Part shown: positions 1 to 20,450 of the stretch, piece after piece
Layout: every line of letters begins with the position of its first letter
Position numbering within the stretch: position 1 is the stretch's first letter
Virus record (IMG/VR): IMGVR_UViG_3300046045_000004
Direction: 5' to 3' (one strand)
DNA from: a virus
Length of the DNA: 20,450 nucleotides
Position numbers and translations under genes: made by a program
The notes under the pieces: generated by a model
Seen by the model: only the letters and a program-made list of their open reading frames with translations
Database searches by the model: none
What the model was told of the DNA's origin: nothing

Positions 1-127
1 TCGGCGTGTACGTGAACGCGACGACCTCTAGGTCGTGGTCGTAGCAATACTCGATGATCGAGTCGCCCGCGGCCGCGGTCCAATCTTGAATTACGGTGCC
101 CGCGAGCGAGCGGCCGCCGAGCTTGCG
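1..127. repeat. Terminal direct repeat, copy 1 (identical to 20324-20450)
   Basis: Base-by-base comparison of tcggcgtgtacgtgaacgcg...ccgccgagcttgcg shows both ends are identical over 127 nt. Confidence 0.95.
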
Positions 128-4446: not shown

Positions 4447-5877
4447 TCACCATATACGCGACGGCTCGACCTCGGCGGGTACCCGAGCCGATACCCACCG
4501 GGCGAGCGACGCGGCGACGAGCGCGCTACCGCCGTCGAGCCGTGACCAAACCCACGCCTGCCCGATAGGGCGCCGAGCCGCCGACGCCGCCGCCGTATCG
4601 AGCACGAGGTGCGGGCGATGCGCGCCCGTGCCGTCGAGCACGGCGTCGTAAAACGCGGCGCACGCTATCTGTAGGTCGCGCGTCGACGAGACGACGAGAC
4701 GGTCGTACACGGGGCGTAGCTGCTCGGCGACCGTGCCCGCGGGCCCCGCGGCGTCGATCGCGATCGCGGTCGGCGACCATTGCGCCGCTAGCTCTACGAG
4801 CCGTGTCGCGACGTGCGCCGCGGGCACGAGGTCGACGACCTCGACGACGCCGCCCGAGCACGCGACGATCGGCGACTCGCTCCGATCGGGCGGGATATCC
4901 GCGGCGAACGTGATCGGGCCGGGCGGCAGCGGATCGAGGTACGCCGACGCGGCCCACGCGTCGACGGGCAGCACGCGCACGTCGGCATCGGTACGCCATC
5001 GGTTCCCGTACTCATGCGCGAATTGCCACGCGGGCATATGGTCCGCGGCAACCGCGAGCGCGTCGTAAATCGGGCCGCCGTCGAGCCCCGCGGACGGGTG
5101 CGCCCGCCATACCTCGCGCAGCAGCTCGCCGTCGTCGACCTCGGCACGTATCCCGTAATCGACGAGAGCGACGCGCGCGTGCGGATCGTCGAGCGCCGCG
5201 CGCGCGACCTCGACCTGCCGAGCGAGAAACCTGCTCTCGGGCCCGCCCGCCGTGCTCGGTATCCATATCTGCCCGTCGCGCGTCGCTTGCGTCGGCAGCG
5301 CCGCCGCGATTAACCCGTCGCCGTGCCGCGCATCGAAAAACCGCGCCTCGTCGAGCACGACGAGATCGGTAACGCTGCCGTGTAACGAATCCTCGGCGGG
5401 CGCGAAAACCCGTAGCTGCGCACCGTTCGCGAATTCGATTTCCTCGGCGCCCGCCGCGCCCCTCACGCGGTAATCCCAGCCGCCCGAATCCCACCCGCGG
5501 TGCGTATTCCCCTCGACGAGCGGCGACCGCCGCAGTAGCCGCACTAGCTCGCGCCAGCGTAGAACCGCGTCCATACGGCTCTGCGCCGTATACCACACTT
5601 GCGCGCCCTCGATCGCGAGGCAGCGGTCGATCGCCACGAGCTGCACGAGCCGCGTTTTACCGCTCTGCCTCGGCACGATCACGACGACTATCGGGTAGCG
5701 CCATCGCCCAGCGCGTCGCGAGTACCCGAGGCGCGCCGCGCGCGCTTGCCAGGGCCATAACGAGACGCCGAGCGCCTCGCTCGTGCGCAATAACGACCAC
5801 CCGCGCCCGATGTTCGGCGATGCGCGGGAGATAGCGCGCGGCTTAGGTGCGCGTTGGCGCGGTGCGGCCGTTACCAC
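4447..5877 (-). CDS. terL: Terminase large subunit
   Basis: Track ORF of 476 aa. Walker A is VPRQSGKT, Walker B is LVVLDEA, and there is a C-terminal nuclease-like half. The GTG start overlaps the HNH ORF end by 7 nt. Confidence 0.9.
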   Translation of the reverse strand: MVTAAPRQRAPKPRAISRASPNIGRGWSLLRTSEALGVSLWPWQARAARLGYSRRAGRWRYPIVVVIVPRQSGKTRLVQLVAIDRCLAIEGAQVWYTAQSRMDAVLRWRELVRLLRRSPLVEGNTHRGWDSGGWDYRVRGAAGAEEIEFANGAQLRVFAPAEDSLHGSVTDLVVLDEARFFDARHGDGLIAAALPTQATRDGQIWIPSTAGGPESRFLARQVEVARAALDDPHARVALVDYGIRAEVDDGELLREVWRAHPSAGLDGGPIYDALAVAADHMPAWQFAHEYGNRWRTDADVRVLPVDAWAASAYLDPLPPGPITFAADIPPDRSESPIVACSGGVVEVVDLVPAAHVATRLVELAAQWSPTAIAIDAAGPAGTVAEQLRPVYDRLVVSSTRDLQIACAAFYDAVLDGTGAHRPHLVLDTAAASAARRPIGQAWVWSRLDGGSALVAASLARWVSARVPAEVEPSRIW

Positions 5878-6212
5878 TCGCGATCGCTCGACCGTCTAGA
5901 GAAAATGGACAGAGTCACGGGGTGTTCCGGGGGCGCACCCATCGGAGAAACGGGCCCCAATTTTTCGGGCCCCTCTTTTTGGCCCCTCTTTTTCGGGCGG
6001 GTATTCGCGGCACGGTTACACCGGGGGTGGGAGGGGCGTGCCGTGTCATCGGTACCGCCGAGCACGCGGGGCACGACGTGATCGAGGTCGAATGCCTCGC
6101 CGTATCGGATCGGTTCGCCGCAGCGCGGGCACGGTTGCGGTAGTTGCTCGGCCCACCATGCGCGGAGTCTGCGCCACGCTCGGGTACTGCCTCGGTCGGT
6201 CAGTAGAGACAC
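5871..6212 (-). CDS. HNH endonuclease (packaging-associated type)
   Basis: Track ORF of 113 aa. The motifs are CPRCGEPI...DLDHVVPRVLGG...HPRCNR. It lies directly upstream of terL, as in HK97-like cos phages. The C-terminal 45 aa or so are encoded by the T-tract repeat block and may not be a folded domain. Confidence 0.8.
   Translation of the reverse strand: MSLLTDRGSTRAWRRLRAWWAEQLPQPCPRCGEPIRYGEAFDLDHVVPRVLGGTDDTARPSHPRCNRAANTRPKKRGQKEGPEKLGPVSPMGAPPEHPVTLSIFSRRSSDREW
5952..5993. repeat. T-tract repeat block. A perfect 13-bp tandem GGCCCCTCTTTTT x2 follows the related GGGCCCCAATTTTT.
   Basis: The perfect copies are at 5968-5980 and 5981-5993, and the degenerate copy is at 5952-5965. This is the most AT-rich spot of the late region and lies between the HNH catalytic core and the terL start. 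Confidence 0.85.
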
Positions 6213-6392
6213 GGGGCGTGCGGCACGGGTCCAGTGTGCAGCGGCCGCGTGCAGCTCGCTAGGCGGGTCGTGGGCCCGCTGCGCCGTATCTGCCTCTCAG
6301 TACGTCCGACGTATCTATGCGTCGTCGTGCGCCGTGTGCTACGCATTGCGACTAATCACGAGGCGGGCGGCCTTACCGCACGGGGGTAACCG
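6213..6392. promoter_or_regulatory. Divergent intergenic region between the HNH/late operon (minus) and the plus-strand cassette
   Basis: The region is 180 nt with no credible ORF, flanked by divergent starts at 6212 and 6393. It contains TGCAGCGGCCGCGTGCA (imperfect dyad around a NotI-type palindrome, about 6236-6252). I could not pin down a convincing -35/-10 pair. Confidence 0.35.
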
Positions 6393-6704
6393 ATGGCTAG
6401 CTCTCGACTACTGGCTCGGCTCGACTACGAAAAGTGTCGGGTATGGGGCCACGCGTGGGACACGTTCACGCCGCACGGTAAGCGGCCGCCCGGATGGGGC
6501 ACGCGGTTCGCGCTCCGTTGCGAGCGGTGCGGTACGGAGCGGCACGACGTGATCGACGCGCTAGGCGACGTAAGCCAGCGGCAGTACGTGTACCCCGACG
6601 ACTACCGCCTCGCTCGTGACGAAACGCCGTCGCGGCAATCGCTACGGCTCGACGTGCTCGACGCGCTTAGGTCGTCGAGACGATCACGGAAACGGAGCGC
6701 GTAG
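6393..6704 (+). CDS. Hypothetical Cys/His-containing protein (103 aa)
   Basis: Track ORF. The ATG lies 7 nt after GGGGG. It has a possible zinc site, C15-x4-H20 (CRVWGH) plus C43-x2-C46 (CERCG). Confidence 0.65.
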   Translation: MASSRLLARLDYEKCRVWGHAWDTFTPHGKRPPGWGTRFALRCERCGTERHDVIDALGDVSQRQYVYPDDYRLARDETPSRQSLRLDVLDALRSSRRSRKRSA

Positions 6705-7291
6705 TGAGCGGCAGTAGTGCGCGGTCACGCGAGCAGGTCGCGTGTCCCGAATGCGGTAAGCGGGTCACCCGTAACAATCTCAACCGCCACCGGGCGACGC
6801 ACGGCGTAGAGGCGCCGAGCAGTAACGGCAGCGGTCGCAAGGCGGGCACGCGGTTAAGCGCGGCGAGTCGTAAGCGGTTCGCGTCGGCGCACGCTCAGTC
6901 GAAAGCGGTCGGCTCGTATCTAGAGTCGCTCGCCGAGCAGAGCGAGACGCGTCGCAACGGCGGCCGTCGTGCGCGCGGTGCGAACCTCGGGCGCCTTAAA
7001 GGTTTCCCGAATTGGAGCGACGACCCGGACACGATCGACGCGGCCGCCGACGCGATCGCGGCGAATGGCGACGAGGTAGCGAGCTACGTCGCGGCGCTCC
7101 GATTGCAGCAGCGGGCGCTCGACCTCCACGCGGTCGCCGACGAGCTACGAGGCGGCAGCGGGCCCGGCGCGATCGAGGCGGCGTTTATCGAGGTCGCGGG
7201 CGCGTGGGCCGCGGAGCACGGGATTAGCTACGCGGCGTTTCGTGCGATGGGAGTACCGGCCGCGGTACTACGAGAGGCGGGCGTCAAGTAG
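6704..7291 (+). CDS. C2H2 (Ros/MucR-like) zinc-finger protein (195 aa), putative DNA-binding regulator
   Basis: Track ORF. The GTG overlaps the upstream TAG (TAGTG). The N-terminal CPECGKRVTRNNLNRHRATH fits C-x2-C-x11-H-x3-H. The middle is basic. The C-terminal WAAEHGISYAAFRAMGVPAAVLREAGV could be a second DNA-binding element, which is speculative. Confidence 0.65.
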   Translation: MSGSSARSREQVACPECGKRVTRNNLNRHRATHGVEAPSSNGSGRKAGTRLSAASRKRFASAHAQSKAVGSYLESLAEQSETRRNGGRRARGANLGRLKGFPNWSDDPDTIDAAADAIAANGDEVASYVAALRLQQRALDLHAVADELRGGSGPGAIEAAFIEVAGAWAAEHGISYAAFRAMGVPAAVLREAGVK

Positions 7292-7521
7292 TGCGGTCGA
7301 TCGCTCCGCGTACGGCGCCGGGCGGGCTCGTGTTCATTCTCTACGACGAGCACGACGCCGAGGTCGATCGCCTCGCCGCGACGAGCCTCGCTACCGACGA
7401 GGCGGCAGCGTTTCACGAGCGAGCGGCACGGCACGCCGAGCACGTGCTCGCGTCGGGCGGTTACGTCGTCGTGTTCGATGGGGATAGCGGCGCGATCGTC
7501 GGCGCGCTCGGCGTCACGTAG
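7291..7521 (+). CDS. Hypothetical protein (76 aa)
   Basis: Track ORF. The GTG overlaps the upstream TAG (TAGTG), the same coupling pattern as its neighbours. Confidence 0.55.
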   Translation: MRSIAPRTAPGGLVFILYDEHDAEVDRLAATSLATDEAAAFHERAARHAEHVLASGGYVVVFDGDSGAIVGALGVT

Positions 7522-7742
7522 TGAGAGGTGCAGCTATGGGATATCTGTACGTGCTCGGCGAGTGTTTCTCGTGCCATCGGCTCTTTACGTTTAGCGCCGA
7601 GCGGGTGCCGTCGATCGTCGTCGACGGGCAGCGTGAGCCCGTCTGCGCCGATTGCGTCGAGCGTGCTAACCCGGAGCGGATCGCTAACGGGTTACCGCCG
7701 ATCGTTCCGCTACCGGGCGCTTACGAGCCCGACGAGGTTTAG
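7521..7742 (+). CDS. Small zinc-ribbon protein (73 aa, or 68 aa from the ATG at 7536)
   Basis: Track ORF with CFSC...CADC (two CxxC pairs). The alternative ATG at 7536 lies 7 nt after GAGAGG. The 3' end overlaps the convergent MerR-like gene. Confidence 0.65.
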   Translation: MRGAAMGYLYVLGECFSCHRLFTFSAERVPSIVVDGQREPVCADCVERANPERIANGLPPIVPLPGAYEPDEV

Positions 7743-8046
7743 CGGGCGGCACGTCGAGGTCGACGACGACGACGAGGTATACGCCCTCGGCGACGTGCGC
7801 GTAGTGCGTCGCCTCGCCCTCGTCGATCGCGGCGCGTGCGATCTCGGCGGCCGCCGCGAGTGTTAGCCCCGCGTCGAGTAGCCGCACCATTACGGCCGCG
7901 ACGCGTAGCTCGTGCTCGGGCCAGCGGCGCCATACGCCCGAGCCGCCCGCGTGCTCGGGCCGTAGGTAGCCGCAGCGGGCCCAATAGTCGAGCCGCCGAT
8001 ACGAGACGCCGACCGCGCGCGACGCGGGCGTGCTCGGCGCCGTCAT
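7684..8046 (-). CDS. MerR-family HTH DNA-binding protein (120 aa)
   Basis: This is the C-terminal part of track ORF 7684..8250. The ATG at 8046 overlaps the methyltransferase stop (ATGA). The sequence GVSYRRLDYWARCGYLRPEH...RRWPEHELRVAAVMVRLLDAGLTL matches a MerR-type wHTH pattern. Confidence 0.7.
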   Translation of the reverse strand: MTAPSTPASRAVGVSYRRLDYWARCGYLRPEHAGGSGVWRRWPEHELRVAAVMVRLLDAGLTLAAAAEIARAAIDEGEATHYAHVAEGVYLVVVVDLDVPPAKPRRARKRPVAERSAVTR

Positions 8047-8558
8047 AGCTCTAGCTCTAGCTGCTGCTCGCGCACGGCGTGCGCCACGGCGCCCGAGCCA
8101 GGGAATACGTCGACGAATTCGTCGCCGGGTCGGTAGTCGAGCAGGTCGAGTAGCCAGCGCGTAAACGTCGCGGGTTTCGCGCCGCCCGGTTTCCCGTCGA
8201 CCTCGCGCCAGCCGCGCGCGCAATCGCTCGACGATACGAGCGCGTCCCATACCGTCGACCGCTCGCCGGGCGCGAGCCCGCGGTGATCGGTTACGAATAG
8301 CACGGGCTCCCAGCTATACCGGACCCTCGACCACCCGTTCGGCGCGAACGTCTTAGCCCACGCGGCGACGCGGGCGTGCGGCGCGAGGTTCCAGATAGCG
8401 CGGAGCGCCGTCGCCGAGGTCGAGAGCGCCCACCCGTCGAATTCGTCGAGGTATGCGAGCAGCAGCTCGACGTTTACCTCGCGGCCGCGCGGCCCGTACC
8501 GCTCGGTCGCCGTGCCCGGATACGGCGGATCGGCGTACGCGAGTCGGCGACGGCTCAT
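8043..8558 (-). CDS. DNA methyltransferase (N6-adenine or N4-cytosine type, DPPY motif), 171 aa
   Basis: This is part of track ORF 8043..8624. The ATG at 8558 overlaps the upstream stop (ATGA). Motif IV (AYADPPYPG) is near the N-terminus and an FxGxG-like FPGSGAV near the C-terminus, the beta-class order. No cognate endonuclease is evident. Confidence 0.75.
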   Translation of the reverse strand: MSRRRLAYADPPYPGTATERYGPRGREVNVELLLAYLDEFDGWALSTSATALRAIWNLAPHARVAAWAKTFAPNGWSRVRYSWEPVLFVTDHRGLAPGERSTVWDALVSSSDCARGWREVDGKPGGAKPATFTRWLLDLLDYRPGDEFVDVFPGSGAVAHAVREQQLELEL

Positions 8559-8779: not shown

Positions 8780-9018
8780 GCGAGGGGCGCGACGATCTCG
8801 GGCTCGACGTGTACGACGACGCCGACGCCGCCGCGGCGCACCGTGAACGACGGCAGATAGCCCTCGTGCTCGGTCGCGTGTACCTCTAGCTCGGTCGAGT
8901 CGTCGGTAATCGCTCGTATGGAGCCGACGAGCAGCCCCGCGAGCCAGTCTCGGTACCGCTCGGCACGGTGCGCCCGCTCTCGCTCGGCGTCGCTCTCACG
9001 CTGCGCCCTCGTGGTCAT
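8776..9018 (-). CDS. Hypothetical protein (80 aa)
   Basis: Track ORF. The ATG overlaps the upstream stop (ATGA), and its stop overlaps the next start (GTGA). Confidence 0.55.
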   Translation of the reverse strand: MTTRAQRESDAERERAHRAERYRDWLAGLLVGSIRAITDDSTELEVHATEHEGYLPSFTVRRGGVGVVVHVEPEIVAPLA

Positions 9019-9554
9019 AGCTCCCCCCTACGCATTCGCTCGCGAATCTCGTCGGCCGCGGCGCGGTTTGTCTCGCGCTGCTCGGCCGTCATCGGCGGTA
9101 GCTCCCAGCGCGACGCGTCGGCGCGCGGGCTCGTCGCCTCGTAGTCGTCGGCGTCGGTACCGTTACGCGTCACCGCGTTACGCGTAACGCGCTCCGTTAC
9201 GCGTAACGCGTCCGCGTCACTTTCGCCGGGATAACCCTCTCTCTCTAGCCCCTTACGGGGCGAGAGAGGGTTATATCCCGAGGAATTTCGAGCAGATTCG
9301 GCGTCGGATCGGGTGAGGTCGGCGTTACGCGTTGCGTTACGCGGCGTAACGCTTTCGCGTAACGCTCGGCGGTAGCGTTTCTGTCTCGCGCGGCTCTGCC
9401 GCCGACGTTTCTCGGCGCGGTCGAGCGCGGGCACGAGCAGCACGCCGTCGTCGACGACGAGGCGGTCGCCGTGGTCGAGCAGCGCGGCGACGGTCGCGAG
9501 CACGTCGAGGTCGTCGTCGTCGGCGCCGAATCCCGAGAGCAGCACGTACGGCAC
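9015..9554 (-). CDS. Hypothetical 179-aa protein whose central region is encoded by the iteron/cruciform array; candidate origin-binding or replication-initiation protein
   Basis: Track ORF. The GTG lies 1 nt after the upstream stop. There is an N-terminal acidic domain, then a basic stretch RRRQSRARQKRYRR. Repeated VT(P)RN peptides (SVTPRNATRN, RVTERVTRNAVTRNG) are encoded by GTTACGCG repeats. The functional call is inference only. Confidence 0.5.
   Translation of the reverse strand: MPYVLLSGFGADDDDLDVLATVAALLDHGDRLVVDDGVLLVPALDRAEKRRRQSRARQKRYRRALRESVTPRNATRNADLTRSDAESARNSSGYNPLSPRKGLEREGYPGESDADALRVTERVTRNAVTRNGTDADDYEATSPRADASRWELPPMTAEQRETNRAAADEIRERMRRGEL
9162..9363. repeat. Iteron array: five GTTACGCG and four (C/G)GCGTAAC copies in two clusters flanking a cruciform; includes 18-bp and 14-bp perfect palindromes
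   Basis: Forward copies are at 9162, 9177, 9196, 9324 and 9336. Reverse copies are at 9181, 9200, 9345 (7/8 match) and 9356. CGCGTTACGCGTAACGCG at 9174-9191 is a perfect palindrome, as is CGTTACGCGTAACG at 9195-9208. Confidence 0.9.
9228..9279. other. Long imperfect inverted repeat (potential cruciform or hairpin) at the centre of the iteron array
   Basis: ATAACCCTCTCTC (9231-9243) pairs perfectly with GAGAGAGGGTTAT (9262-9274). The inner stem is GCCCC/GGGGC with a TTAC loop. The outer GGG/CCC pair follows a 2-nt bulge. Confidence 0.85.
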
Positions 9555-9555
9555 C

Positions 9556-9834
9556 TCAGAGCCCGACCCTCGCTAATTCGATACGAGCGCCGCCGTGCTC
9601 GTCCGCGTGCCGTTCCGCGGGTGCCCACGGCATGAACGTAGCGCCGCACGTCGCGCAGCGGTAGCGGGGCGTAGAGACGCCCGAGGCGGGCGTCGCGCGC
9701 GGGTTACGTTCCGGGCGGTTCGTATCCGATGGCACGCGACGCCCGCGCCGCGCTCGCTCTGCGCCGTCTAGCTGGCTCGCGAGCGCGGCTACCGCTGCAC
9801 GGCGTAGCCGTGGCGGCATCTCGTCGAGGTTCAC
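9556..9834 (-). CDS. Small protein with a classical C2H2 zinc-finger pattern (92 aa)
   Basis: Track ORF. The GTG lies 9 nt after GAGGG. YRCATCGATFMPWAPAERHADEH fits Y-x-C-x2-C-x3-F-x8-H-x3-H. Confidence 0.65.
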   Translation of the reverse strand: MNLDEMPPRLRRAAVAALASQLDGAERARRGRRVPSDTNRPERNPRATPASGVSTPRYRCATCGATFMPWAPAERHADEHGGARIELARVGL

Positions 9835-9846
9835 GGGTGGGGCCCT

Positions 9847-10217: not shown

Positions 10218-10414
10218 AACGCGGGCTCCGCTCGGGCGGCGCGCCAGCTATGGGTTTGCAGCAGGTCGAGCACCTCGTCGTCGTCGAAAACGGTCGCGTC
10301 GGCTACGTCGGTCGTCGACGTGAACGCGTACCGACGCGGGTAGCCGCGCACGGTATCGGCTACGTCGACGACGAAAACGCGGCCGCCCTCGCCGTCGCGG
10401 GTGATTACTTTCAC
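10214..10414 (-). CDS. Hypothetical protein (66 aa)
   Basis: Track ORF. The GTG overlaps the RecT stop (GTGA). Confidence 0.55.
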   Translation of the reverse strand: MKVITRDGEGGRVFVVDVADTVRGYPRRYAFTSTTDVADATVFDDDEVLDLLQTHSWRAARAEPAL

Positions 10415-11391
10415 GGCTCGCGCTGCTCGTCGTCGGGCGGGCGGTCGAGCGCCTCTAGGTATCCGATTACGCGGTCGGCCTCGGCGGGCGTTAGATCCTT
10501 GCTCGTCGATAGCTCGGGCCGGTTCACGATCTCACGCGCCAGCGCGAGCCGCTGCTCGCGGTCGCCGATCCCGTGCTCGCGCATTAGCTGCTGTAGCCGT
10601 CTCACTTGCGGCGCCGTAATCACGTCGCCGCGATCGTCGGTAGCGGCAGACGATGGCACGCCGCGATCGTCAGCGCCCGCGCCCTCGCGGGTAGCGGCGT
10701 CTGCCGCGTTCTCTCCGGGCAGCGGCGGTAGCGGCGCCGCTTGCGGTGCCGAATCCACTACGGCGGTCGTATCCGCTACTGCCGCTGCCGCGGCTTGGCG
10801 CCGACGCGTCGCGCGCGGGCGGGCGGGTGGAATACCCGCGGGCTCGGCGCCGACGCCGACCTCGCCGTCGAATTCTTCGATTGCGCCCAGCCCGTGCACT
10901 ACGTCGGCGAACACGGCGCGCACGAGGTCGGCGCTCGCGCGCGCCGAGAGCATCTGCCGCGGGTAGGCGCGCCAATTCGGTTTCCCGTCGAGCTTCGCGC
11001 GGCGCGCGTCGTCGAGGGTCCAGCTAACGCGCGTCACGTTTTCGGAGCCCGCACGGCGGCCGCACCATGTAGCGCGGCTCGTGGTCAGCTCGTCGGGCCA
11101 TATCTCGTGCCCCGCGGCGAGCACGAGCGCCCGCTGCGCCTCGGCCGCTACGAATATGCGGCCGTCGATCACGTGTATCTCGTTCACGCTTGCGAGCGGG
11201 CCGAGCCCTACCTCGTCGCCGTAGAGAATGGCGGCCGTAACGGCGGGCACGTTATGACGCAACCCGCGCGGCACGAATTCGGTCGGCGCGATCGTTTTCG
11301 CGACCTCGGCCGCGGGTGCGAGTATGTCGACCCACCCGCGCGCGGGCCCACGTTGCACGGGCGGGTCGACGACCTTAACTAACGCCGTCAT
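10411..11391 (-). CDS. recT: RecT-family single-strand annealing recombinase with a low-complexity linker and extra C-terminal domain (326 aa)
   Basis: This is part of track ORF 10411..11454. The ATG at 11391 overlaps the upstream stop (ATGA). The sequence ILYGDEVGLGPLASVNEIHVIDGR...NWRAYPRQMLSARASADLVRAVFADV is RecT-like. An Ala/Pro-rich linker follows, then ITAPQVRRLQQLMREHGIGDREQRLALAREIVNRPELSTSKDLTPAEADRVIGYLEAL. Confidence 0.8.
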   Translation of the reverse strand: MTALVKVVDPPVQRGPARGWVDILAPAAEVAKTIAPTEFVPRGLRHNVPAVTAAILYGDEVGLGPLASVNEIHVIDGRIFVAAEAQRALVLAAGHEIWPDELTTSRATWCGRRAGSENVTRVSWTLDDARRAKLDGKPNWRAYPRQMLSARASADLVRAVFADVVHGLGAIEEFDGEVGVGAEPAGIPPARPRATRRRQAAAAAVADTTAVVDSAPQAAPLPPLPGENAADAATREGAGADDRGVPSSAATDDRGDVITAPQVRRLQQLMREHGIGDREQRLALAREIVNRPELSTSKDLTPAEADRVIGYLEALDRPPDDEQREP

Positions 11392-11600
11392 AGCGTTAGC
11401 TCGCCCTGCTCGGGCGCGATCCCGTCGCGAATCCGCGACATACAACGCGAGCACGCGACCCGGCCGGTATTGCGGCGGCCGACGAGCGCGTTTAGCCCGC
11501 CGCCCGCGCCGCGGCCGCGTAAGTGTTCCCAGCCGCGCACCTCGCGGCCGTTCCGCTGCCGAGGGTCGAGCGCCTCGCCGCAGATCGAGCAGCGCGCCAT
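11388..11600 (-). CDS. Small zinc-ribbon-like protein (70 aa)
   Basis: This is the C-terminal part of track ORF 11388..11729, starting at the ATG at 11600. MARCSICGEALD...VACSRCMSRI has two CxxC pairs. Confidence 0.55.
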   Translation of the reverse strand: MARCSICGEALDPRQRNGREVRGWEHLRGRGAGGGLNALVGRRNTGRVACSRCMSRIRDGIAPEQGELTL

Positions 11601-11611
11601 ACCGCCGAGCG

Positions 11612-11842
11612 TCACGCCTCGACCTCGTAGTAATCGGCGCCGCCGTCGCGGCCGACGATCCACCCGGCGCGCGGGTGCGGCTCGTCGAGGTGAACCGAGC
11701 AGCAGCAGCCGCACGCGTTCACGTGCCATACGGCGCGGTGCCCCGTGTCGGCGTAGTCGTGTATTAGCCGCTCGATCGCGTGCGCCTGCTGAAATGGCAG
11801 CAGCGCGAGTAGCGAGCCCGCGTATGGATTCTCGCGGCTCAC
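11612..11842 (-). CDS. Hypothetical protein (76 aa) with a CGCCC cysteine cluster
   Basis: This is the C-terminal tail of the spurious 484-aa track ORF 11612..13066. The GTG at 11842 overlaps the exonuclease stop (GTGA). The sequence is VSRENPYAGSLLALLPFQQAHAIERLIHDYADTGHRAVWHVNACGCCCSVHLDEPH... Confidence 0.55.
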   Translation of the reverse strand: MSRENPYAGSLLALLPFQQAHAIERLIHDYADTGHRAVWHVNACGCCCSVHLDEPHPRAGWIVGRDGGADYYEVEA

Positions 11843-12627
11843 GTCGTCGCCTCGGCGGTCGTCGGCGCGGTGAGCGCGTCGCCGATCACGTCGCCACGAG
11901 GTCGAGCGCGAAACGCGGCGACCTGCTGCGCGTAGAGAAACGATCGAAACGTGCTCGGCCCGATATCGAGCGGCAGCACGTCGTACCCGTCCGCGCGGAG
12001 CCATACCGCGAGCCCGCGCCCGATTTTCGGCAGCTCGTGCTCGACGCCCTCGACGACGTACGCCTCGGCGTGCGCGTACGCGGCTAGCTGTAGCGCCGTC
12101 TCGGCGAATACGCCCGAGCCGCCCGTTTTCCAATCCACGACGGCTATCCCGAGGTCGTCGCCCGCGAGGTCGGCGCCGTCGACGTACGCGAGCAGGTCGA
12201 GCGTGCCCGCGTAGCGCCACTCGCGATTTACGACCATCGCCTCGACCGCGATCTCGTCGACGTGCCATTGCTCCAAAAACGCGAGGCACGCGTCGACGTG
12301 CCCGACGAGCGCGTCGTCGACCTCGACCTGCTCGCCGTGCAGTAGCCGCGCCGCGAGGTCGTGCACGGTCGTACCGCGCACGGTCGCCGCCTTTTGTCGG
12401 TCGAATCGGCCGCGCTCCATAGCGCGGAGCCGATCGGCCGAGCCGAGAGCGCCGAGGTCGTCCCAATGGTCGAGCGCGTAGCCCGCCGTCTCGCGGGCGG
12501 CCCAATCCACGAGCGCGGGTTTCGGTACGCCCTCGCCGATAATGCGGGTTACGCCGTCGACGGGCTCGCCCTCGTCGTCGACGTAACGGTGCCCGGACCC
12601 GGCGCGAATGCGCCGCCAGCCCGCCAC
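11839..12627 (-). CDS. PD-(D/E)XK (RecB/Cas4-like) exonuclease, partner of RecT
   Basis: Track ORF of 262 aa. The GTG lies 2 nt after the Xis-like stop. It has the GTLDLL...VVDWKTG (D...D/E-x-K) motif. It sits in a recombination module with RecT downstream. Confidence 0.7.
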   Translation of the reverse strand: MAGWRRIRAGSGHRYVDDEGEPVDGVTRIIGEGVPKPALVDWAARETAGYALDHWDDLGALGSADRLRAMERGRFDRQKAATVRGTTVHDLAARLLHGEQVEVDDALVGHVDACLAFLEQWHVDEIAVEAMVVNREWRYAGTLDLLAYVDGADLAGDDLGIAVVDWKTGGSGVFAETALQLAAYAHAEAYVVEGVEHELPKIGRGLAVWLRADGYDVLPLDIGPSTFRSFLYAQQVAAFRARPRGDVIGDALTAPTTAEATT

Positions 12628-12629
12628 GG

Positions 12630-12839
12630 TTAGCCCGCCTGCTCGGCCGTGCGCAGTAGCGCCTCGACGCTCGCGCGGGTGATACGCACGCCGCGGCGCG
12701 GGATCGTGCCGCGCGCGCTCGTTTGTATGTAATCGAGATCGCCGCGGTCGACCATGCGGTACACGGTGCGCACGCCAACGCGGAGATACGCCGCCGTCTC
12801 GGCGACGGTCCAGTACGGGCTACGCGGTTGCTCCGCCAT
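12630..12839 (-). CDS. Excisionase-type/MerR-superfamily HTH DNA-binding protein (69 aa)
   Basis: Track ORF. An ATG follows the RBS GGGGGGGAG. YWTVAETAAYLRVGVRTVYRMVDRGDL matches the Xis/HTH_17 pattern. It lies next to the integrase. Confidence 0.7.
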   Translation of the reverse strand: MAEQPRSPYWTVAETAAYLRVGVRTVYRMVDRGDLDYIQTSARGTIPRRGVRITRASVEALLRTAEQAG

Positions 12840-12954
12840 TCTCCCCCCCTGAGGTGCGAGGGTCCGCGCGTCGCCCGGCCGTGCGGATCGTGTCGCCGAC
12901 AGTAACGAGAGGCACGATCTGCCGCTAGCGGAAAATTGGATTTAGACGCGAAAT

Positions 12955-13001
12955 AACGCCCGCTCGTGTCACTCGATACACGTAGTGACAGAGCGGGCGT
13001 T
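12955..13001 (-). terminator. Strong hairpin (11 + 6 bp stem, 12-nt loop) 32 nt downstream of the integrase stop, inside an AT-rich island
   Basis: AACGCCCGCTC-G-TGTCAC [tcgatacacgta] GTGACA-GAGCGGGCGTT. On the minus strand it is followed only by a short ATTT, so it is not a textbook U-tract terminator. It could instead be a recombination or operator site. Confidence 0.5.
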
Positions 13002-13032
13002 AAATCGCGGACTACAGATCCACCCGAGCGCG

Positions 13033-14199
13033 TTACGACGCGCGGTGCGCCTCGATTCTGCGCCACGCGTTCGCGAGCGCCGTCGTCGCGAGGTCGTCGA
13101 CCTCGGCCCGCGCGTGCCCGTATACCTCTAGCAGCATCGCGGGCGTTGACCAGCCGTTACGCGCGGCGACGTTCAGCACGGGCACGCCCGCGGCTACCTG
13201 CTCGCTCGTGTTCACGTGCCGTAGGTCGTGGAAACGGAGCCGCACGCCCGCCGCGCGCGCTGCCCGTACCCATCGCTGCCCGAGAGCTTGCGGGCTCGTG
13301 TAGTCACGCTCTAGCCGCCGCGAGAGCACGGCTCGGTCGTCGAGGTCGTCGACGCCCGCACGCTCGGCCGCCTCGACCTGCCGTAGATAGCGGCTCGTCA
13401 GCATCGCCGCGCACGACGGGTCGAGACGCACGCGGCGTACCTTGCGCGTTTTTGTCGTGCGCCGCTGCCACGCGTTATCGCCGGGTCGCCCCTTGCATAC
13501 GTTCCCGTCGATCCGTACGACGCCGCCCACGAGGTCGATATCGCGCCAGCGGAGCGCGGCTAGCTCCCCTCGTCGGGCGCCCGTCGCGATCGCGAGGTGT
13601 ACGACCTCGCCGAGGTCGTCGCCCTCGTCGAGCCCCTCTAGGACGCGAGCGATATCGCCGAGGTCGTAGTCGTCGACCGCCCGGCGCGGCTCGTGGTCGT
13701 GGTCGTCGTCGAGCGCGGCCGGGATTACCCGAGCGCCGTCGTACTGCTCGCGGCGAATCCATCGGGCCCGCTCTACGTCGGCGAGCGCCTGCCGCACGAG
13801 GCGGGCGACGCCGCGCACCGTGCGGAGCGAGAGCGTCGGCGCGTGAGGCGCCACCGTGCCCGCTTGTAGCTGCCCGTAGTACCGCTCTAGCCGTTCCGGG
13901 TCGAGAGCGTCGAGCCGCACGCTTGCGAGCCAGTACGGCCGCACGTAACGCTCGACGCCGCCGACGTAGGCCCGCTCGGTATTCGGCGCCCAGCCGCCGC
14001 GGTGCAGCGCGACGTAACGGTCGAGCGCGTCGATAACGGTGCGCCCGTCCGCGTCGGCCGGGCGGCTCGCGAGCTGCTGCTCGACCTGCTGCGCCTGCTC
14101 GTGCGTATCGACCGTGCGGCAGACGCGCACGCGCTTACCCGCGGCGTCGGGCCGCTCTACGGTCACCTTGTAACGTCCGTTCCCTTGCTGCTGTATCAC
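13033..14199 (-). CDS. int: Tyrosine integrase (site-specific recombinase, phage integrase family)
   Basis: Track ORF of 388 aa. The GTG lies 6 nt after GGAG. It has an N-terminal arm/SAM-like region. Catalytic-domain signatures are ATGARRGEL (Arg I), HDLRH (His-x-x-Arg) and LEVYGH (Tyr). Confidence 0.9.
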   Translation of the reverse strand: MIQQQGNGRYKVTVERPDAAGKRVRVCRTVDTHEQAQQVEQQLASRPADADGRTVIDALDRYVALHRGGWAPNTERAYVGGVERYVRPYWLASVRLDALDPERLERYYGQLQAGTVAPHAPTLSLRTVRGVARLVRQALADVERARWIRREQYDGARVIPAALDDDHDHEPRRAVDDYDLGDIARVLEGLDEGDDLGEVVHLAIATGARRGELAALRWRDIDLVGGVVRIDGNVCKGRPGDNAWQRRTTKTRKVRRVRLDPSCAAMLTSRYLRQVEAAERAGVDDLDDRAVLSRRLERDYTSPQALGQRWVRAARAAGVRLRFHDLRHVNTSEQVAAGVPVLNVAARNGWSTPAMLLEVYGHARAEVDDLATTALANAWRRIEAHRAS

Positions 14200-14226
14200 G
14201 TGTTTCTCCGATCGGATCGACCGTCG

Positions 14227-14415
14227 CGCGGGTGGCGCGACGGGTGGCGCGCCGCTGGCAAGCGGCGTATTCCGATGCTACGAGCGGCACGAGCGGCACG
14301 CGTAATGGCACGTCAGAGCGTGTACGCCGTCGCGGCTCCCTAACTCTGACATAGAGCACGGGCGCAGCGTTTCAGCAGGTCAGAGCCCCTATCCACAAGG
14401 GGCGCGGGTGGCGCG
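14227..14415. repeat. Repeat-rich intergenic region upstream of int: three GGGTGGCGCG copies, a GAGCGGCAC tandem x2 and GTCAGAG/CTCTGAC inverted motifs; attP/arm-site candidate
   Basis: GGGTGGCGCG occurs at 14230-14239, 14242-14251 and 14406-14415. GAGCGGCAC x2 is at 14282-14299. GTCAGAG is at 14312-14318 and 14380-14386, with its complement CTCTGAC at 14344-14350. The small hairpin GCCCC-tatccacaa-GGGGC is at 14386-14404. Confidence 0.6.
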
Positions 14416-14603
14416 CGCGGTGGCGGTGGATAACGGCGGGCCCGGATCGTGCGTCTAGGGTGCCGCCGCGCGCGCGGGCGGCGCCCGTCGAGAGTGGCGA
14501 AAACGGATCGGCTCGGCGACCGTCCGCGTGCGTACAGTCGGCAGCGGCGGGCACGGCCGGGCGGCCCTCGTTCCCCCCAGCCGAGCCGCCCGACGTGCCG
14601 CCT

Positions 14604-14708
14604 CTACCCGTGCGTCGCGAGGTACACGAGCAGCAGCGCGAGCCCGAGCAGCCCGCCGAATGCCAGCACGACGTACGCCGAGGCGCGATCGAGCCCGCGC
14701 CGACGCAC
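14604..14708 (-). CDS. Tiny single-TM protein (34 aa), holin/lysis-accessory candidate
   Basis: Hand translation gives VRRRGLDRASAYVVLAFGGLLGLALLLVYLATHG. It is in frame with, and 7 codons downstream of, the TAG ending the preceding TM ORF. The start codon is uncertain. Confidence 0.4.
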   Translation of the reverse strand: MRRRGLDRASAYVVLAFGGLLGLALLLVYLATHG

Positions 14709-14729
14709 GCCCGCCCGCCGTCGTCGTCG

Positions 14730-14828
14730 CTAGCCGCGGCGCGTGAGCCCGACGAGCCAGCGCACGAGCGCGATACCCGCGAGCACGCCTAGCTCGATGT
14801 TCAGCACGAGAGCTTGCGTATGGCTCAT
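14730..14828 (-). CDS. Tiny single-TM protein (32 aa), holin candidate
   Basis: Hand translation gives MSHTQALVLNIELGVLAGIALVRWLVGLTRRG. The ATG overlaps the endolysin TAA (TAATG). Confidence 0.5.
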   Translation of the reverse strand: MSHTQALVLNIELGVLAGIALVRWLVGLTRRG

Positions 14829-15514
14829 TACTGCCTCGTTCGCATCGCGTACGCCTCGCCCTTAATCGAAACGAGGTCGTAGCCGTGCGCGCCGCCGTCG
14901 CTCGGCGCGCAGAGCACGCGGAACCGTCGCGCGGGATCGTTGCGCACGTTCGCCGGTAGCGAGAAATACGACCCGTAAAACGGGCCGCGCACCGTGCGCA
15001 CGCCGCCGTCGTATTGCAGATCCCACGCGCCCTCGTCGGTTACGAGCCGCGCGACCGTTTCCTTATCTCCGGGCACGTCGTCACCTCCCACGGGCGGCGC
15101 GCTCGCGCCGCCACTCTCGCCGAGGCACGCGGCGACGACCTCGTGCCAGCGCGCCATCGTGAAATCACCGGGGCATACCGTCGAGCTGCCCGGACTATTG
15201 CGATGCGCGACGACCTCGGGCTCGTCGACGACGTACCCGTGCGCGCGTGCGTCGTCGAGCGCCGCGGCGATTACGTCGAGGTCGTGATCGGTAACCGCGT
15301 GCTCCATGCGGTTACCCGGTAGCACGAGGTCGACGCTAACGCCGTTTCGGTCGAGCGTCGCGTACGACGACCAAACATCGCGGAACCGAGCGAACGTATC
15401 GGTACCGATCGCGTACGTGTAGCCGCCCTCAGAGCAGCGCCACGCGTTCGCCGCGGTCGTCGGCGCGCCCGCGCCCTCGTGGTGCACGGTAACGAGCGAG
15501 ACGGGCGCGGGCAT
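14828..15514 (-). CDS. Endolysin: N-acetylmuramoyl-L-alanine amidase (PGRP/Amidase_2-like) with an uncharacterised C-terminal domain
   Basis: Track ORF of 228 aa. VTVHHEG...HRNSPGSSTVCPG matches the zinc-amidase signature. A Gly/Pro linker follows, then a C-terminal domain of about 80 aa. It lies after the tail genes and before the TM ORFs. Confidence 0.8.
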   Translation of the reverse strand: MPAPVSLVTVHHEGAGAPTTAANAWRCSEGGYTYAIGTDTFARFRDVWSSYATLDRNGVSVDLVLPGNRMEHAVTDHDLDVIAAALDDARAHGYVVDEPEVVAHRNSPGSSTVCPGDFTMARWHEVVAACLGESGGASAPPVGGDDVPGDKETVARLVTDEGAWDLQYDGGVRTVRGPFYGSYFSLPANVRNDPARRFRVLCAPSDGGAHGYDLVSIKGEAYAMRTRQ

Positions 15515-20147: not shown

Positions 20148-20450
20148 CTACTCGCCCGAGCTAGCCGACGCCGCGGCGGTCCGCGCGACGGGCGGCGTGC
20201 GCACGAGCGGCGCGGTTAGCTGCCACTCGAAATCGCTCGTTATACGCGCGTTCACGTCGCCGCCGTACGTCTCGGCGGGCACCTCGATACGGAGCGAGCC
20301 GGTAAGCGTCGGGCCCGCGGCGTTCGGCGTGTACGTGAACGCGACGACCTCTAGGTCGTGGTCGTAGCAATACTCGATGATCGAGTCGCCCGCGGCCGCG
20401 GTCCAATCTTGAATTACGGTGCCCGCGAGCGAGCGGCCGCCGAGCTTGCG
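20148..20450 (-). CDS. Putative major tail protein, C-terminal part (5' end runs off the window; 20324-20450 duplicates 1-127)
   Basis: Hand translation gives ...FTYTPNAAGPTLTGSLRIEVPAETYGGDVNARITSDFEWQLTAPLVRTPPVARTAAASASSGE, ending in the TAG at 20150-20148. It is in frame with 1-292 through the repeat. Confidence 0.55.
   Translation of the reverse strand, partial: RKLGGRSLAGTVIQDWTAAAGDSIIEYCYDHDLEVVAFTYTPNAAGPTLTGSLRIEVPAETYGGDVNARITSDFEWQLTAPLVRTPPVARTAAASASSGE
20324..20450. repeat. Terminal direct repeat, copy 2 (identical to 1-127)
   Basis: See copy 1. Confidence 0.95.

What the first reader, a model, noticed from the sequence alone, without database searches (positions are those of the whole stretch)
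6393..7742. Only opposite-strand module: a four-gene, overlap-coupled cassette of small zinc-binding proteins, a candidate unconventional lysogeny or regulatory system
Every other gene is on the minus strand. This cassette diverges from the late operon and converges on the early operon. Divergent placement of this kind is where temperate phages usually put a repressor or immunity gene, yet no CI-like HTH protein is present. Three of its four proteins have Cys/His metal-site patterns: C-x4-H plus CxxC, a Ros/MucR-like CPECGKRVTRNNLNRHRATH finger on a 195-aa basic protein, and a double-CxxC ribbon. All four genes are joined by identical TAGTG stop-start overlaps, if the fourth starts at the GTG at 7521 rather than the ATG at 7536. 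If the 195-aa zinc-finger protein is the maintenance repressor, it would be an unusual repressor class. The cassette could also be an accessory exclusion or anti-defence module.
Basis: partly seen in the sequence, partly recalled or inferred. Interest (0 to 1): 0.7.

Follow-up and report, generated by a model that had tools for sequence, protein, structure and literature searches.

The report
Counter-strand zinc-protein module in small phage
A complete 20-kb temperate phage genome has no recognisable repressor gene, and its only opposite-strand genes include a conserved pair of uncharacterised zinc proteins that sits beside the repressor or integrase gene in other phages, so the pair is a reasonable but unproven candidate for a new lysogeny regulator.

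Summary
The cassette is real. The window is a complete circular phage genome of about 20.3 kb, and A (6393-6704), B (6704-7291), C (7291-7521) and D (7536-7742) are its only plus-strand genes. It is not one unit. The conserved core is the A-B pair, which recurs tightly linked in at least six other phage backbones. C occurs only in close relatives. D is a separate, highly conserved zinc-ribbon gene that follows the HNH gene on the main strand in other phages, and it starts at ATG 7536 with its own ribosome-binding site.

A belongs to phrog_4480 and has a conserved C-x4-H...CxxC site and a weakly WRKY-like beta-sheet model. B joins a near-classical beta-beta-alpha C2H2 finger (CX2CX11HX3H, not Ros/MucR spacing) to a coiled-coil and C-terminal helical core. 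That core belongs to a large family with no Pfam or NCBIfam model, whose short forms are stand-alone chromosomal genes of Acidimicrobiia.

Fingerless B genes lie within 2.6 kb of a CI-like gene in 4 of 4 contexts. Finger-bearing B genes lie where no CI is detectable in 3 of 3 contexts, including this whole genome.

Best reading: a prophage-side DNA-binding regulator pair, possibly standing in for CI. No repressor function is shown. A prophage-expressed accessory role, like lambda rexAB, is a serious rival.

The parts
6213..6392 (.). Divergent intergenic region between the HNH start (6212, minus strand) and the A start (6393). It probably holds the cassette promoter and possibly a leftward late promoter. 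Features: a conserved block at 6336-6359 (GTGCTACGCATTGCGACTAATCAC); two same-sense CGTATCTR copies at 6285 and 6310; a TTACC...GGTAA inverted repeat at 6373-6389 that includes a G-rich ribosome-binding site.
   Evidence: The block is conserved in L003 and L007. CGTATCTR occurs 6 times in the genome against 1.3 expected, with 0 of 100 shuffles reaching 6, and it is doubled in L003. No sigma-70 consensus promoter was found. Promoter and operator roles are inferred.
6393..6704 (+). Gene A, 103 aa. Zinc-binding protein of family phrog_4480 with conserved C15, H20, C43 and C46 and a basic C-terminal helix. First half of the conserved A-B pair.
   Evidence: phrog_4480 E=6e-15. 78 phage records by tblastn. 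17 close homologues with invariant cysteines. AF2 model pLDDT 76: helix, four-stranded sheet, helix. Best PDB matches are WRKY domains, E=0.019, below significance.
6704..7291 (+). Gene B, 195 aa. The GTG start overlaps A's TAG stop. Residues 14-33 (nt 6743-6802) form a C2H2 finger. Residues 38-47 are disordered and residues 53-84 form a long helix. Residues about 105-194 (nt 7016-7288) are the conserved helical core, ending in GISYAAFRAMGVPAAVLREAGV.
   Evidence: Alignment of 7 homologues. AF2 pLDDT 78 with a beta-beta-alpha finger. A profile search found 1718 cluster representatives at E<=1e-3. Short chromosomal forms occur in Acidimicrobiia. No Pfam or NCBIfam family.
7291..7521 (+). Gene C, 76 aa, no cysteines. 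The GTG start overlaps B's TAG stop. Accessory gene present only in close relatives.
   Evidence: Best codon score of the four, 0.39. Homologues at 48-52% identity in the same position in L003-L005 and L031; absent from L006, L007 and L033. No family hit and no relative in viral contigs.
7523..7528 (+). GAGAGG ribosome-binding site for D, 7 nt upstream of ATG 7536.
   Evidence: Read from the sequence.
7536..7742 (+). Gene D, 68 aa. Double-CxxC zinc ribbon (C10, C13, C37, C40). An independent, highly conserved gene attached to the cassette only in this lineage.
   Evidence: 74-81% identical homologues in five viral contigs; in L020 and L021 the large terminase is only 26-35% identical. D directly follows HNH on the same strand in L019 and L020, and precedes a B-like gene in L035.
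7684..8046 (-). MerR-like HTH gene, the last gene of the early operon. It converges on the cassette and overlaps D by 59 nt. Its tail (7684-7761) looks like an unconstrained extension.
   Evidence: Pfam MerR_1 E=1.3e-9. Homologues are 95-111 aa. The tail's codon score is -0.42, against +0.23 for D in the overlap.
5871..6212 (-). HNH endonuclease, first gene of the packaging and structural operon. It diverges from the cassette and overlaps the large-terminase start (5877).
   Evidence: Pfam HNH E=9e-7 and phrog_338. Large terminase matches phrog_9.

Best explanation
The functional unit is the A-B gene pair. It is a mobile two-gene module of DNA-binding-type zinc proteins that belongs to the lysogeny and immunity side of temperate phages that probably infect Acidimicrobiia.

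B joins a sequence-reading domain, here a C2H2 finger, to an oligomerising coiled-coil and C-terminal helical core. Phages appear to have taken that core from a conserved chromosomal host protein.

Proposed mechanism (inferred, not shown): the pair is transcribed rightward from its own promoter at 6213-6392 while the prophage is otherwise silent. B oligomers bind phage DNA through the finger and hold leftward promoters off. The nearest target is the divergent HNH-terminase operon. B probably also regulates its own promoter. A, whose translation is coupled to B's, acts as B's partner, either as a co-regulator or as an antagonist.

In phages that carry a CI repressor, the fingerless B core works alongside CI. 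In this CI-less 20-kb phage the finger-bearing B may carry the repressor role itself. C and D are unrelated small add-on genes.
For: Shown:
- The genome is complete and circular. It has a tyrosine integrase and an Xis-like gene but no CI/Cro-type gene at Pfam or PHROGs sensitivity.
- A-D are the only plus-strand genes.
- A-B adjacency recurs in the window's own clade and in six other contexts: L012, L026/L027, L029/L030, L036, L038 and L082. None of about 45 chromosomal-type B loci has an A neighbour.
- A/B junctions are tight everywhere, -4 to +3 nt.
- In L026/L027 the order is Cro, then divergently CI, A, B, with 53 nt between cI and A.
- Fingerless B has a CI-like gene within 2.6 kb in 4 of 4 contexts with enough flank. 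Finger-bearing B has none in 3 of 3 (the whole window genome; 20.7 kb of L029; 4.4 kb of L034). In each of those three, finger-B is transcribed opposite to a neighbouring operon; the intergenic region is divergent in the window and in L034, and in L029 B diverges from an A-like gene that heads the leftward operon.
- B's model has a beta-beta-alpha finger, a disordered linker, a 32-residue helix and a helical bundle.
- N-termini across the family differ: C2H2 finger or plain basic, plus AP2-like and HTH-like types that I read by eye, with only sub-threshold Pfam hints.
- The region upstream of A has a block conserved in relatives and a doubled CGTATCTR motif.

Precedent: actinophages often acquire host regulators such as Lsr2 and WhiB (PMC8612146), and the prophage-encoded Lsr2-like protein CgpS silences its own prophage (PMC5137423).
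Against: - No expression, binding or genetic data exist.
- No operator-like motif is shared between 6213-6392 and the other intergenic regions at 9546-9846, 12840-13032 and 14200-14729. A route to silencing the early operon is therefore missing.
- The link between the finger and the absence of CI rests on 3 against 4 contexts. Two of the finger contexts are partial contigs.
- A-B orientation relative to CI varies: same strand in L026 and L012, convergent in L036, divergent in L025.
- Where CI exists, A-B is by definition not the primary repressor. That fits an accessory role equally well.
- The B core has no significant similarity to any solved DNA-binding fold, and its conserved C-terminal motif is not strongly basic.
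- The A family also occurs among unannotated genes of 66-91 kb Gordonia and Nocardia phages.
- The MerR-like protein or an unrecognised small protein could be the real repressor.
Confidence: 0.4

Rival explanations
1. A-B is a prophage-expressed accessory module, in the position that rexAB holds in lambda. It would be transcribed in the lysogen next to the immunity genes, but its job would be superinfection exclusion, defence, or changing host physiology, for example by mimicking or co-assembling with the host's own B-type protein. It would not repress the phage's own promoters.
For: - It lies directly downstream of cI in L026/L027. This matches lambda's cI-rexA-rexB layout, which is established knowledge.
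- In L012 it sits between integrase and lysis genes, a typical site for prophage accessory ('moron') genes.
- The module moves between unrelated backbones.
- The B core has conserved stand-alone chromosomal homologues in Acidimicrobiia, which fits mimicry of a host protein.
Against: - No hit to any PADLOC defence model.
- Neither protein has an enzymatic or membrane-effector domain. Both look like nucleic-acid binders.
- It does not explain why the finger-bearing form occurs where CI is missing.
- It leaves this complete temperate genome without any repressor.
Confidence: 0.3
2. The cassette serves late gene expression or DNA packaging. B or A would activate or time the divergent HNH-terminase operon, or supply the missing small-terminase DNA-recognition function. 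D would be a packaging accessory.
For: - The cassette diverges directly from HNH-TerL, and no small terminase is recognised in the complete genome.
- D follows HNH just upstream of the terminase region in L019 and L020.
- B's layout of N-terminal DNA-binding domain, oligomerising helix and C-terminal domain resembles small-terminase architecture (my own knowledge).
- Zinc-binding late activators are known, such as P2 Ogr (my own knowledge).
Against: - In four other backbones A-B lies next to immunity or integration genes, not packaging genes.
- The B core has stand-alone chromosomal homologues in core regions of the host genome.
- B and A match no PHROGs or Pfam terminase or late-regulator family.
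- Placement on the opposite strand would uncouple them from the late operon.
- The adjacent MerR-like protein is a likelier small-terminase or late-regulator candidate, given the MerR-HNH-...-TerL order in L020.
Confidence: 0.12
3. There is no unified system. The four genes would be unrelated small early-type phage genes of separate function that ended up on the opposite strand through a local inversion or insertion between the MerR-like gene and HNH.
For: - C is restricted to close relatives and D is found on its own elsewhere.
- D is co-directional with the main operon at the equivalent locus in L019 and L020.
- The A family occurs without B in many isolated phages.
Against: - A-B adjacency with tight junctions recurs in at least seven backbones, and only in phage contexts. 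That is hard to explain by chance.
- The cassette's upstream region has a block conserved in relatives.
Confidence: 0.1

Closest known systems
Phage-acquired host nucleoid and regulator proteins in actinophages: Lsr2-like proteins such as CgpS of the Corynebacterium prophage CGP3, and WhiB-like proteins
   Same: - A phage gene is related to a conserved chromosomal protein of the presumed host clade.
- The architecture is an oligomerising segment plus a small C-terminal helical domain.
- CgpS maintains prophage silencing (PMC5137423).
- Lsr2-type genes are enriched in temperate actinophages (PMC8612146).
- One A-family gene (Lucyedi gp35) overlaps the 3' end of an annotated Lsr2-like gene.
   Different: - There is no detectable homology to Lsr2. 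hhalign probability was below 1% in two tests, and there is no Pfam Lsr2 hit.
- B lacks the RGR AT-hook motif.
- B carries an added C2H2 finger and is paired with a second zinc protein.
- Lsr2 targets AT-rich DNA, whereas this genome is a uniform 63-74% GC.
Lambda-type immunity region: cI/cro, with rexAB co-transcribed downstream of cI
   Same: - The unit is counter-oriented relative to the lytic genes.
- In L026/L027 A-B occupies the rexAB position downstream of a CI-like gene and opposite a Cro-like gene.
- In L029/L030 finger-B and an A-like gene form a divergent pair at the head of opposed operons.
   Different: - This genome has no HTH_3-type repressor.
- B has no HTH, no peptidase S24 domain and no similarity to CI.
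- The divergent partner here is the packaging and structural operon, not an early operon.
- No operator array was identified.
Ros/MucR prokaryotic zinc-finger silencers
   Same: A bacterial-world protein that combines one Cys2His2 zinc finger with an oligomerisation domain. MucR acts like H-NS (my own knowledge).
   Different: - Finger spacing is CX2CX11HX3H here, against about CX2CX9HX3-4H in Ros (my own knowledge).
- The finger is N-terminal, not C-terminal.
- The predicted fold is a plain beta-beta-alpha finger.
- There is no Pfam ROS_MUCR hit at E<=1.
WRKY-GCM1 beta-sheet zinc fingers (PMC1702500), for protein A
   Same: A four-stranded sheet with a zinc site. WRKY domains are the best PDB matches to the A model (6j4g_B, probability 1.0, target TM-score 0.65, rmsd 2.6 A over 52 residues).
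   Different: - The Foldseek E-value of 0.019 is below the usual significance level.
- The ligand order is C,H...C,C rather than C,C...H,H.
- There is no WRKYGQK motif and no sequence-level match.

Membership tests
CI/Cro (HTH_3, Xre-type) phage repressors | Helix-turn-helix of the Xre/HTH_3 type in the candidate repressor | tested here: not met
   No HTH_3 or HTH_31 hit for A-D or for any other gene of the complete genome. The same library finds such genes in L012, L026 and L027.
CI/Cro (HTH_3, Xre-type) phage repressors | Repeated operators in the divergent control region that are bound by the repressor | tested here: inconclusive
   The only candidates are a doubled CGTATCTR and one conserved block at 6213-6392. 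No motif is shared with other intergenic regions. Binding cannot be tested with these tools.
Ros/MucR zinc-finger family | Match to the ROS_MUCR domain, with Ros-type ligand spacing and a C-terminal finger | tested here: not met
   No Pfam ROS_MUCR hit at E<=1. The spacing is CX2CX11HX3H and the finger is N-terminal.
Classical C2H2 (beta-beta-alpha) zinc finger | CX2-4C...HX3-5H ligands on a beta-hairpin plus helix | tested here: met
   Ligands are conserved in 6 of 7 close homologues and in distant ones. The AF2 model has strands 11-13 and 20-22 and helix 23-33.
Classical C2H2 (beta-beta-alpha) zinc finger | Score above the Pfam zf-C2H2 gathering threshold | tested here: not met
   19.4 bits against a cut-off of 25.2, E=1.4e-3. 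The spacer is one residue shorter than the canonical 12.
Lsr2-like nucleoid-associated proteins | Sequence or profile homology to the Lsr2 dimerisation and DNA-binding domains | tested here: not met
   hhalign of the B-family profile against M. tuberculosis Lsr2 (sequence recalled from memory) gave E=0.096 and probability 0.6%. Against Lsr2 plus Lucyedi gp34 it gave E=0.084 and probability 0.7%. There is no Pfam hit.
Lsr2-like nucleoid-associated proteins | RGR AT-hook-like motif in the C-terminal domain | tested here: not met
   The conserved motif is GISY-A-(F/W)R-x-(M/V)GVP-x-x-VL, with no RGR.
Small terminase subunit | Match to a TerS family in Pfam or PHROGs, in a position co-oriented with and upstream of the large terminase | tested here: not met
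   No TerS hit for A-D. The cassette is on the opposite strand. The B core has stand-alone chromosomal homologues.
phrog_4480 (protein A) | Significant full-length match to the family profile | tested here: met
   E=6.2e-15, residues 11-95 against profile positions 12-97 of 99. The family has no known function.
WRKY-GCM1 zinc fingers (protein A) | Four-stranded sheet with a zinc site and significant structural or sequence similarity | tested here: inconclusive
   The model has a four-stranded sheet. The best Foldseek hits are WRKY domains, but E=0.019-0.3. The ligand order differs.
Known anti-phage defence systems (PADLOC) | Match to any defence-system protein model | tested here: not met
   There are no hits for A, C or D. 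B has only chance-level coiled-coil hits, E>0.01.

The most novel reading that the evidence does not exclude
Finger-bearing B, working with A, is a new class of phage immunity repressor. It would be built on a scaffold borrowed from a conserved Acidimicrobiia chromosomal protein that may be nucleoid-associated, with interchangeable N-terminal DNA-reading modules (a C2H2 finger here; possibly AP2-like or HTH types elsewhere). It would replace CI/Cro in a minimal 20-kb temperate siphovirus. The uncharacterised host family, with more than 1700 cluster representatives, would then be a new actinobacterial DNA-organising protein.
Probability: 0.22. Interest if true: 0.75.

Novelty: new variant of a known kind. 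Interest (0 to 1): 0.55.

Why it matters
Phages of Acidimicrobiia, an abundant soil and aquatic group with few cultured members, are known almost only from metagenomes, and how they control lysogeny is unknown.

This complete 20.3-kb temperate genome has an integrase and an excisionase-like gene but no recognisable repressor. That makes it a very small system in which to find the missing switch.

The analysis reduces the candidates to one conserved gene pair. It links that pair to CI-adjacent positions in other phages. It also uncovers a large protein family with no Pfam or NCBIfam model that is shared by host chromosomes and phages.

If B is the repressor, it would add a zinc-finger, host-derived class to the known repressor types and give the host family a first functional handle. 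If it is an accessory module, it is still a new, widely mobile, prophage-borne pair worth testing for exclusion or host-modulating activity.

Tried and rejected
- Nucleotide similarity to isolated phages: no blastn match for 5800-8300. B has one weak tblastn hit, to 'Caudovirales GX15bay', whose context is glycosyltransferases and looks cellular. D has no tblastn hit.
- Fold searches with the B model: nothing significant in PDB or BFVD. Only the finger matched C2H2/UBZ fingers, at E>2.
- Profile search of the B family against PDB sequences: only chance coiled-coil hits.
- Lsr2 homology: tested twice and rejected.
- Small-terminase idea: no family support.
- Defence-system models: none.
- Shared operator search by k-mers between 6213-6392 and the other intergenic regions: nothing beyond GC-rich background.
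- Consensus promoter and terminator scan of 5800-8400: none found. Such scans are not tuned to actinobacterial promoters.
- Integrated prophage copies, to identify the host and the attachment site: two genome-contig scans found no relatives. Two further attempts failed for lack of a conserved stretch. The host assignment to Acidimicrobiia therefore rests only on homology of the B core and on GC content.
- C: no relative in viral contigs and no family.
- tRNA and Rfam scans of the window: nothing.
None occurs upstream of the cassette.
Full report
**What the window is.** The window carries a 127-nt exact terminal overlap, so it is a complete circular assembly of 20323 unique bases. Independent contigs of the same or related phages are 20.3-21.1 kb long. 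GC content is 63-74% throughout.

On the minus strand it encodes, in order of transcription:
- a tyrosine integrase (13033-14199) and an Xis-like HTH_17 protein (12630-12839)
- an exonuclease (11839-12627) and a RecT-like protein (10411-11391)
- small genes, a methyltransferase-like gene and a MerR-like gene (7684-8046)
- then HNH (5871-6212), large terminase (4447-5877), portal, prohead protease and capsid
- then, continuing through the start of the circle, connectors, tape measure (17669-19351), tail genes and an amidase (14828-15514).

It is therefore a minimal temperate siphovirus. No small terminase and no CI/Cro-type gene is recognisable with Pfam or PHROGs in any called gene.

**Checking the observation.**
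- Base composition by codon position and a codon-usage log-odds score trained on the large genes support all four. No other plus-strand ORF in the genome scores as coding.
- Each has homologues elsewhere.
- TAGTG is present at all three junctions. The pentamer is not enriched overall: 7 observed against about 9 expected.
- The fourth junction is almost certainly not a start. GAGAGG at 7523-7528 precedes ATG 7536. Gene callers chose the ATG. In the three D homologues whose sequences were read, the conserved sequence begins at MGY(L/M)YVLG.
- Relatives keep the A/B junction tight (TGAnnnATG, ATGA or GTGA), but not the TAGTG sequence itself.
- D overlaps the 3' tail of the convergent MerR-like gene by 59 nt. 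Codon scores favour D in the overlap. MerR homologues are 95-111 aa, so the tail is probably unconstrained.

**The cassette is heterogeneous.** Close relatives carry A-B-C (L003-L005, L031) or only A-B (L006, L007, L033) in the same place, between HNH-TerL and the MerR-like gene.

D occurs in five other viral contigs at 74-81% identity; in L020 and L021 the large terminase is only 26-35% identical. It lies on the same strand as the flanking genes that could be identified in each contig, and directly downstream of HNH in L019 and L020. D is thus an independent, strongly conserved double-CxxC gene that joined the cassette only in this lineage. C has no detectable relatives beyond the clade.

**Protein A.**
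- A matches phrog_4480, a family of unknown function, at E=6e-15.
- tblastn finds it in 78 Gordonia, Mycobacterium and Nocardia phage records.
- The residues C15, H20, C43 and C46 and a Y-x-Y-P-x-x-Y motif are conserved from close homologues to those isolated phages.
- An AlphaFold model (pLDDT 76) shows an N-terminal helix, a four-stranded sheet and a basic C-terminal helix.
- The best PDB matches are plant WRKY DNA-binding domains (E=0.019, probability 1.0, target TM-score 0.65). This is suggestive but below significance, and the zinc-ligand order differs.

**Protein B.**
- B has only about seven close homologues. A profile built from them finds 1718 cluster representatives at E<=1e-3, most matching the C-terminal 90-140 residues.
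- The family has no Pfam or NCBIfam model.
- Short forms of about 130 aa are stand-alone genes on megabase-scale contigs labelled Acidimicrobiia or Acidimicrobiales. They sit in unrelated core neighbourhoods, such as among purine-biosynthesis genes or next to a sigma-factor cluster. That clade is therefore the likely host, although no integrated copy of the phage was found.
- The B model (pLDDT 78) has a beta-beta-alpha finger (residues 11-33), a disordered linker, a 32-residue helix and a helical bundle ending in the near-invariant GISYAAFRAMGVPAAVLREAGV.
- The finger spacing is CX2CX11HX3H. Pfam zf-C2H2 scores just under threshold and there is no Ros/MucR hit.
- Fold and sequence searches against solved structures find nothing significant for the core.
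- I suspected a resemblance to the Lsr2 C-terminal domain. Profile comparison placed the alignment in the expected region, but with probability below 1%. Membership in the Lsr2 family is rejected and only the architectural analogy remains.
- Across phage-borne members the N-terminus varies: C2H2 finger or plain basic, plus AP2-like and HTH-like types by my reading of the sequences. The Pfam hints for the last two are sub-threshold.

**Context in other phages.** This is the most informative evidence. I scanned 93 fetched loci with profiles of A and B.

| Context | Arrangement | CI-like gene nearby |
|---|---|---|
| Window clade (L001-L007, L024, L031-L033) | A then finger-B, divergent from HNH-TerL | None in the complete genome |
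| L034 | A then finger-B, divergent from a minus-strand operon | None in 4.4 kb |
| L029/L030 | Finger-B heads a small counter-oriented operon; an A-like gene heads the opposed operon | None in 20.7 kb |
| L026/L027 | Cro-like, then divergently CI-like, A, fingerless B, facing a serine integrase; cI to A gap 53 nt | Yes, immediately upstream |
| L012 | A-B (fingerless) on CI's strand, between integrase and lysis genes | Yes, CI/Cro pair about 2.3 kb away |
| L025 | A distant A-like gene (my reading of the sequence) and B, between a CI-like gene and a serine integrase | Yes, divergent and adjacent |
| L036 | A-B (fingerless), convergent on CI | Yes, with Cro and an exonuclease beyond |
| L038, L082 | A-B adjacent | Contigs too short to tell |

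- None of about 45 chromosomal-type B loci has an A neighbour.
- Fingerless B has a CI-like neighbour in 4 of 4 informative contexts. Finger-bearing B has none in 3 of 3.
- The numbers are small and two of the finger contexts are partial contigs.
- One further observation: in mycobacteriophage Lucyedi the A homologue overlaps the end of an annotated Lsr2-like gene.

**The control region.**
- The 180-nt region upstream of A contains a block (6336-6359) conserved in L003 and L007.
- It also has two same-sense copies of CGTATCTR, at 6285 and 6310. The genome holds 6 copies against 1.3 expected, and the motif is also doubled in L003.
- No motif is shared with the other intergenic regions.
- No consensus sigma-70 promoter or intrinsic terminator was found.
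GTTACGCG occurs eight times at 9162-9363 around a hairpin. GGGTGGCG occurs at 14230, 14242 and 14406. TACGGGTG occurs three times at 2292-2340.

**Interpretation.** What is shown:
- There is a conserved, translationally coupled pair of zinc proteins.
- The pair is specific to phage copies of a family shared between host and phage.
- It repeatedly lies beside immunity and integration genes.
- In this complete CI-less temperate genome it is the core of the only counter-oriented transcription unit.

What is inferred:
- B binds DNA specifically through its finger and oligomerises through its core.
- The unit is expressed in the lysogen.
- It represses phage promoters.

I commit to that reading at about 0.4. 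The stronger claim, that finger-B is the maintenance repressor in place of CI, gets about 0.2.

The main rival, at 0.3, is a prophage-expressed accessory module in the rexAB position, perhaps acting on the host's own B-type protein. A late-expression or packaging role (0.12) and a chance juxtaposition (0.1) are less likely, for the reasons given under the rival explanations.

**Verdict.** The observation largely holds, with corrections to D's start, the finger type and the unity of the cassette. The finding is a new variant of a known theme, in which phages borrow host regulators and place them in the immunity region. It is built from protein families that have no Pfam or NCBIfam model and no described function. 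Interest is moderate, 0.55. It would rise to about 0.75 if B proves to be a repressor.

Noticed in passing
window 1-127 and 20324-20450: An exact 127-nt terminal direct repeat shows that the window is a complete circular assembly of 20323 unique bases. This is a very small genome for a temperate siphovirus.
   Followed up: yes
window 9162-9363: Eight of the genome's nine GTTACGCG copies, several arranged as CGTTACGCGTAACG palindromes, flank a strong hairpin at 9231-9274. All lie inside the called 176-aa ORF 9015-9545, which has no homologue outside L001, the same phage. It looks like an iteron-type replication origin or a regulator-binding array. The ORF call may be partly spurious.
   Followed up: partly
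window 14230-14413 and 2292-2340: GGGTGGCG occurs at 14230, 14242 and 14406, upstream of the integrase in the probable attP region. TACGGGTG occurs three times plus one GGGTGGCG at 2292-2340, between the protease and capsid genes. Both motifs are enriched over shuffled sequence. Their function is unknown.
   Followed up: partly
window 12945-13000: An inverted repeat with about 18-nt arms (AACGCCCGCTCGTGTCACT...AGTGACAGAGCGGGCGTT) lies just downstream of the integrase stop and is followed by the most AT-rich stretch nearby. It is probably the integrase terminator next to the early promoter.
   Followed up: no
window 5953-5998 (inside the 3' end of HNH); ends of L001 and L003: Two 18-nt T-rich direct repeats (GGCCCCAATTTTTCGGGC and GGCCCCTCTTTTTCGGGC) lie 28 nt apart inside the HNH gene, upstream of the terminase start. 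Two independent contigs (L001 and L003) both end inside the HNH gene. This may mark a cos or terminase-recognition site.
   Followed up: partly
window 5871-5877 and 7684-8046: HNH overlaps the large-terminase start directly, and no small terminase is recognisable anywhere in the genome. The MerR-like gene precedes HNH on the same strand in L020. It may be the small-terminase equivalent or a late regulator.
   Followed up: partly
L014 2604-3264 (Mycobacterium phage Lucyedi gp34-gp35): The A-family gene gp35 overlaps the 3' end of the annotated Lsr2-like DNA-bridging gene gp34. This is a second case of the A family sitting beside a protein of the nucleoid-associated type.
   Followed up: no
L020 6089-6643: A 184-aa ORF with collagen-like Gly-X-Y repeats in its N-terminal part lies between the D homologue and the terminase region of a related phage.
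   Followed up: no
window 11388-11615: A 75-aa early gene has sub-threshold zinc-ribbon hits (Zn_ribbon_3 E=1.7e-3). Small zinc-binding proteins are therefore not confined to the plus-strand cassette.
   Followed up: no
L008 (GenBank MK557849, 'Caudovirales GX15bay'): The only 'phage' record with a B-family gene has about 12 kb of glycosyltransferase, mannanase and endoglucanase genes around it. It looks like cellular DNA rather than a phage.
   Followed up: no
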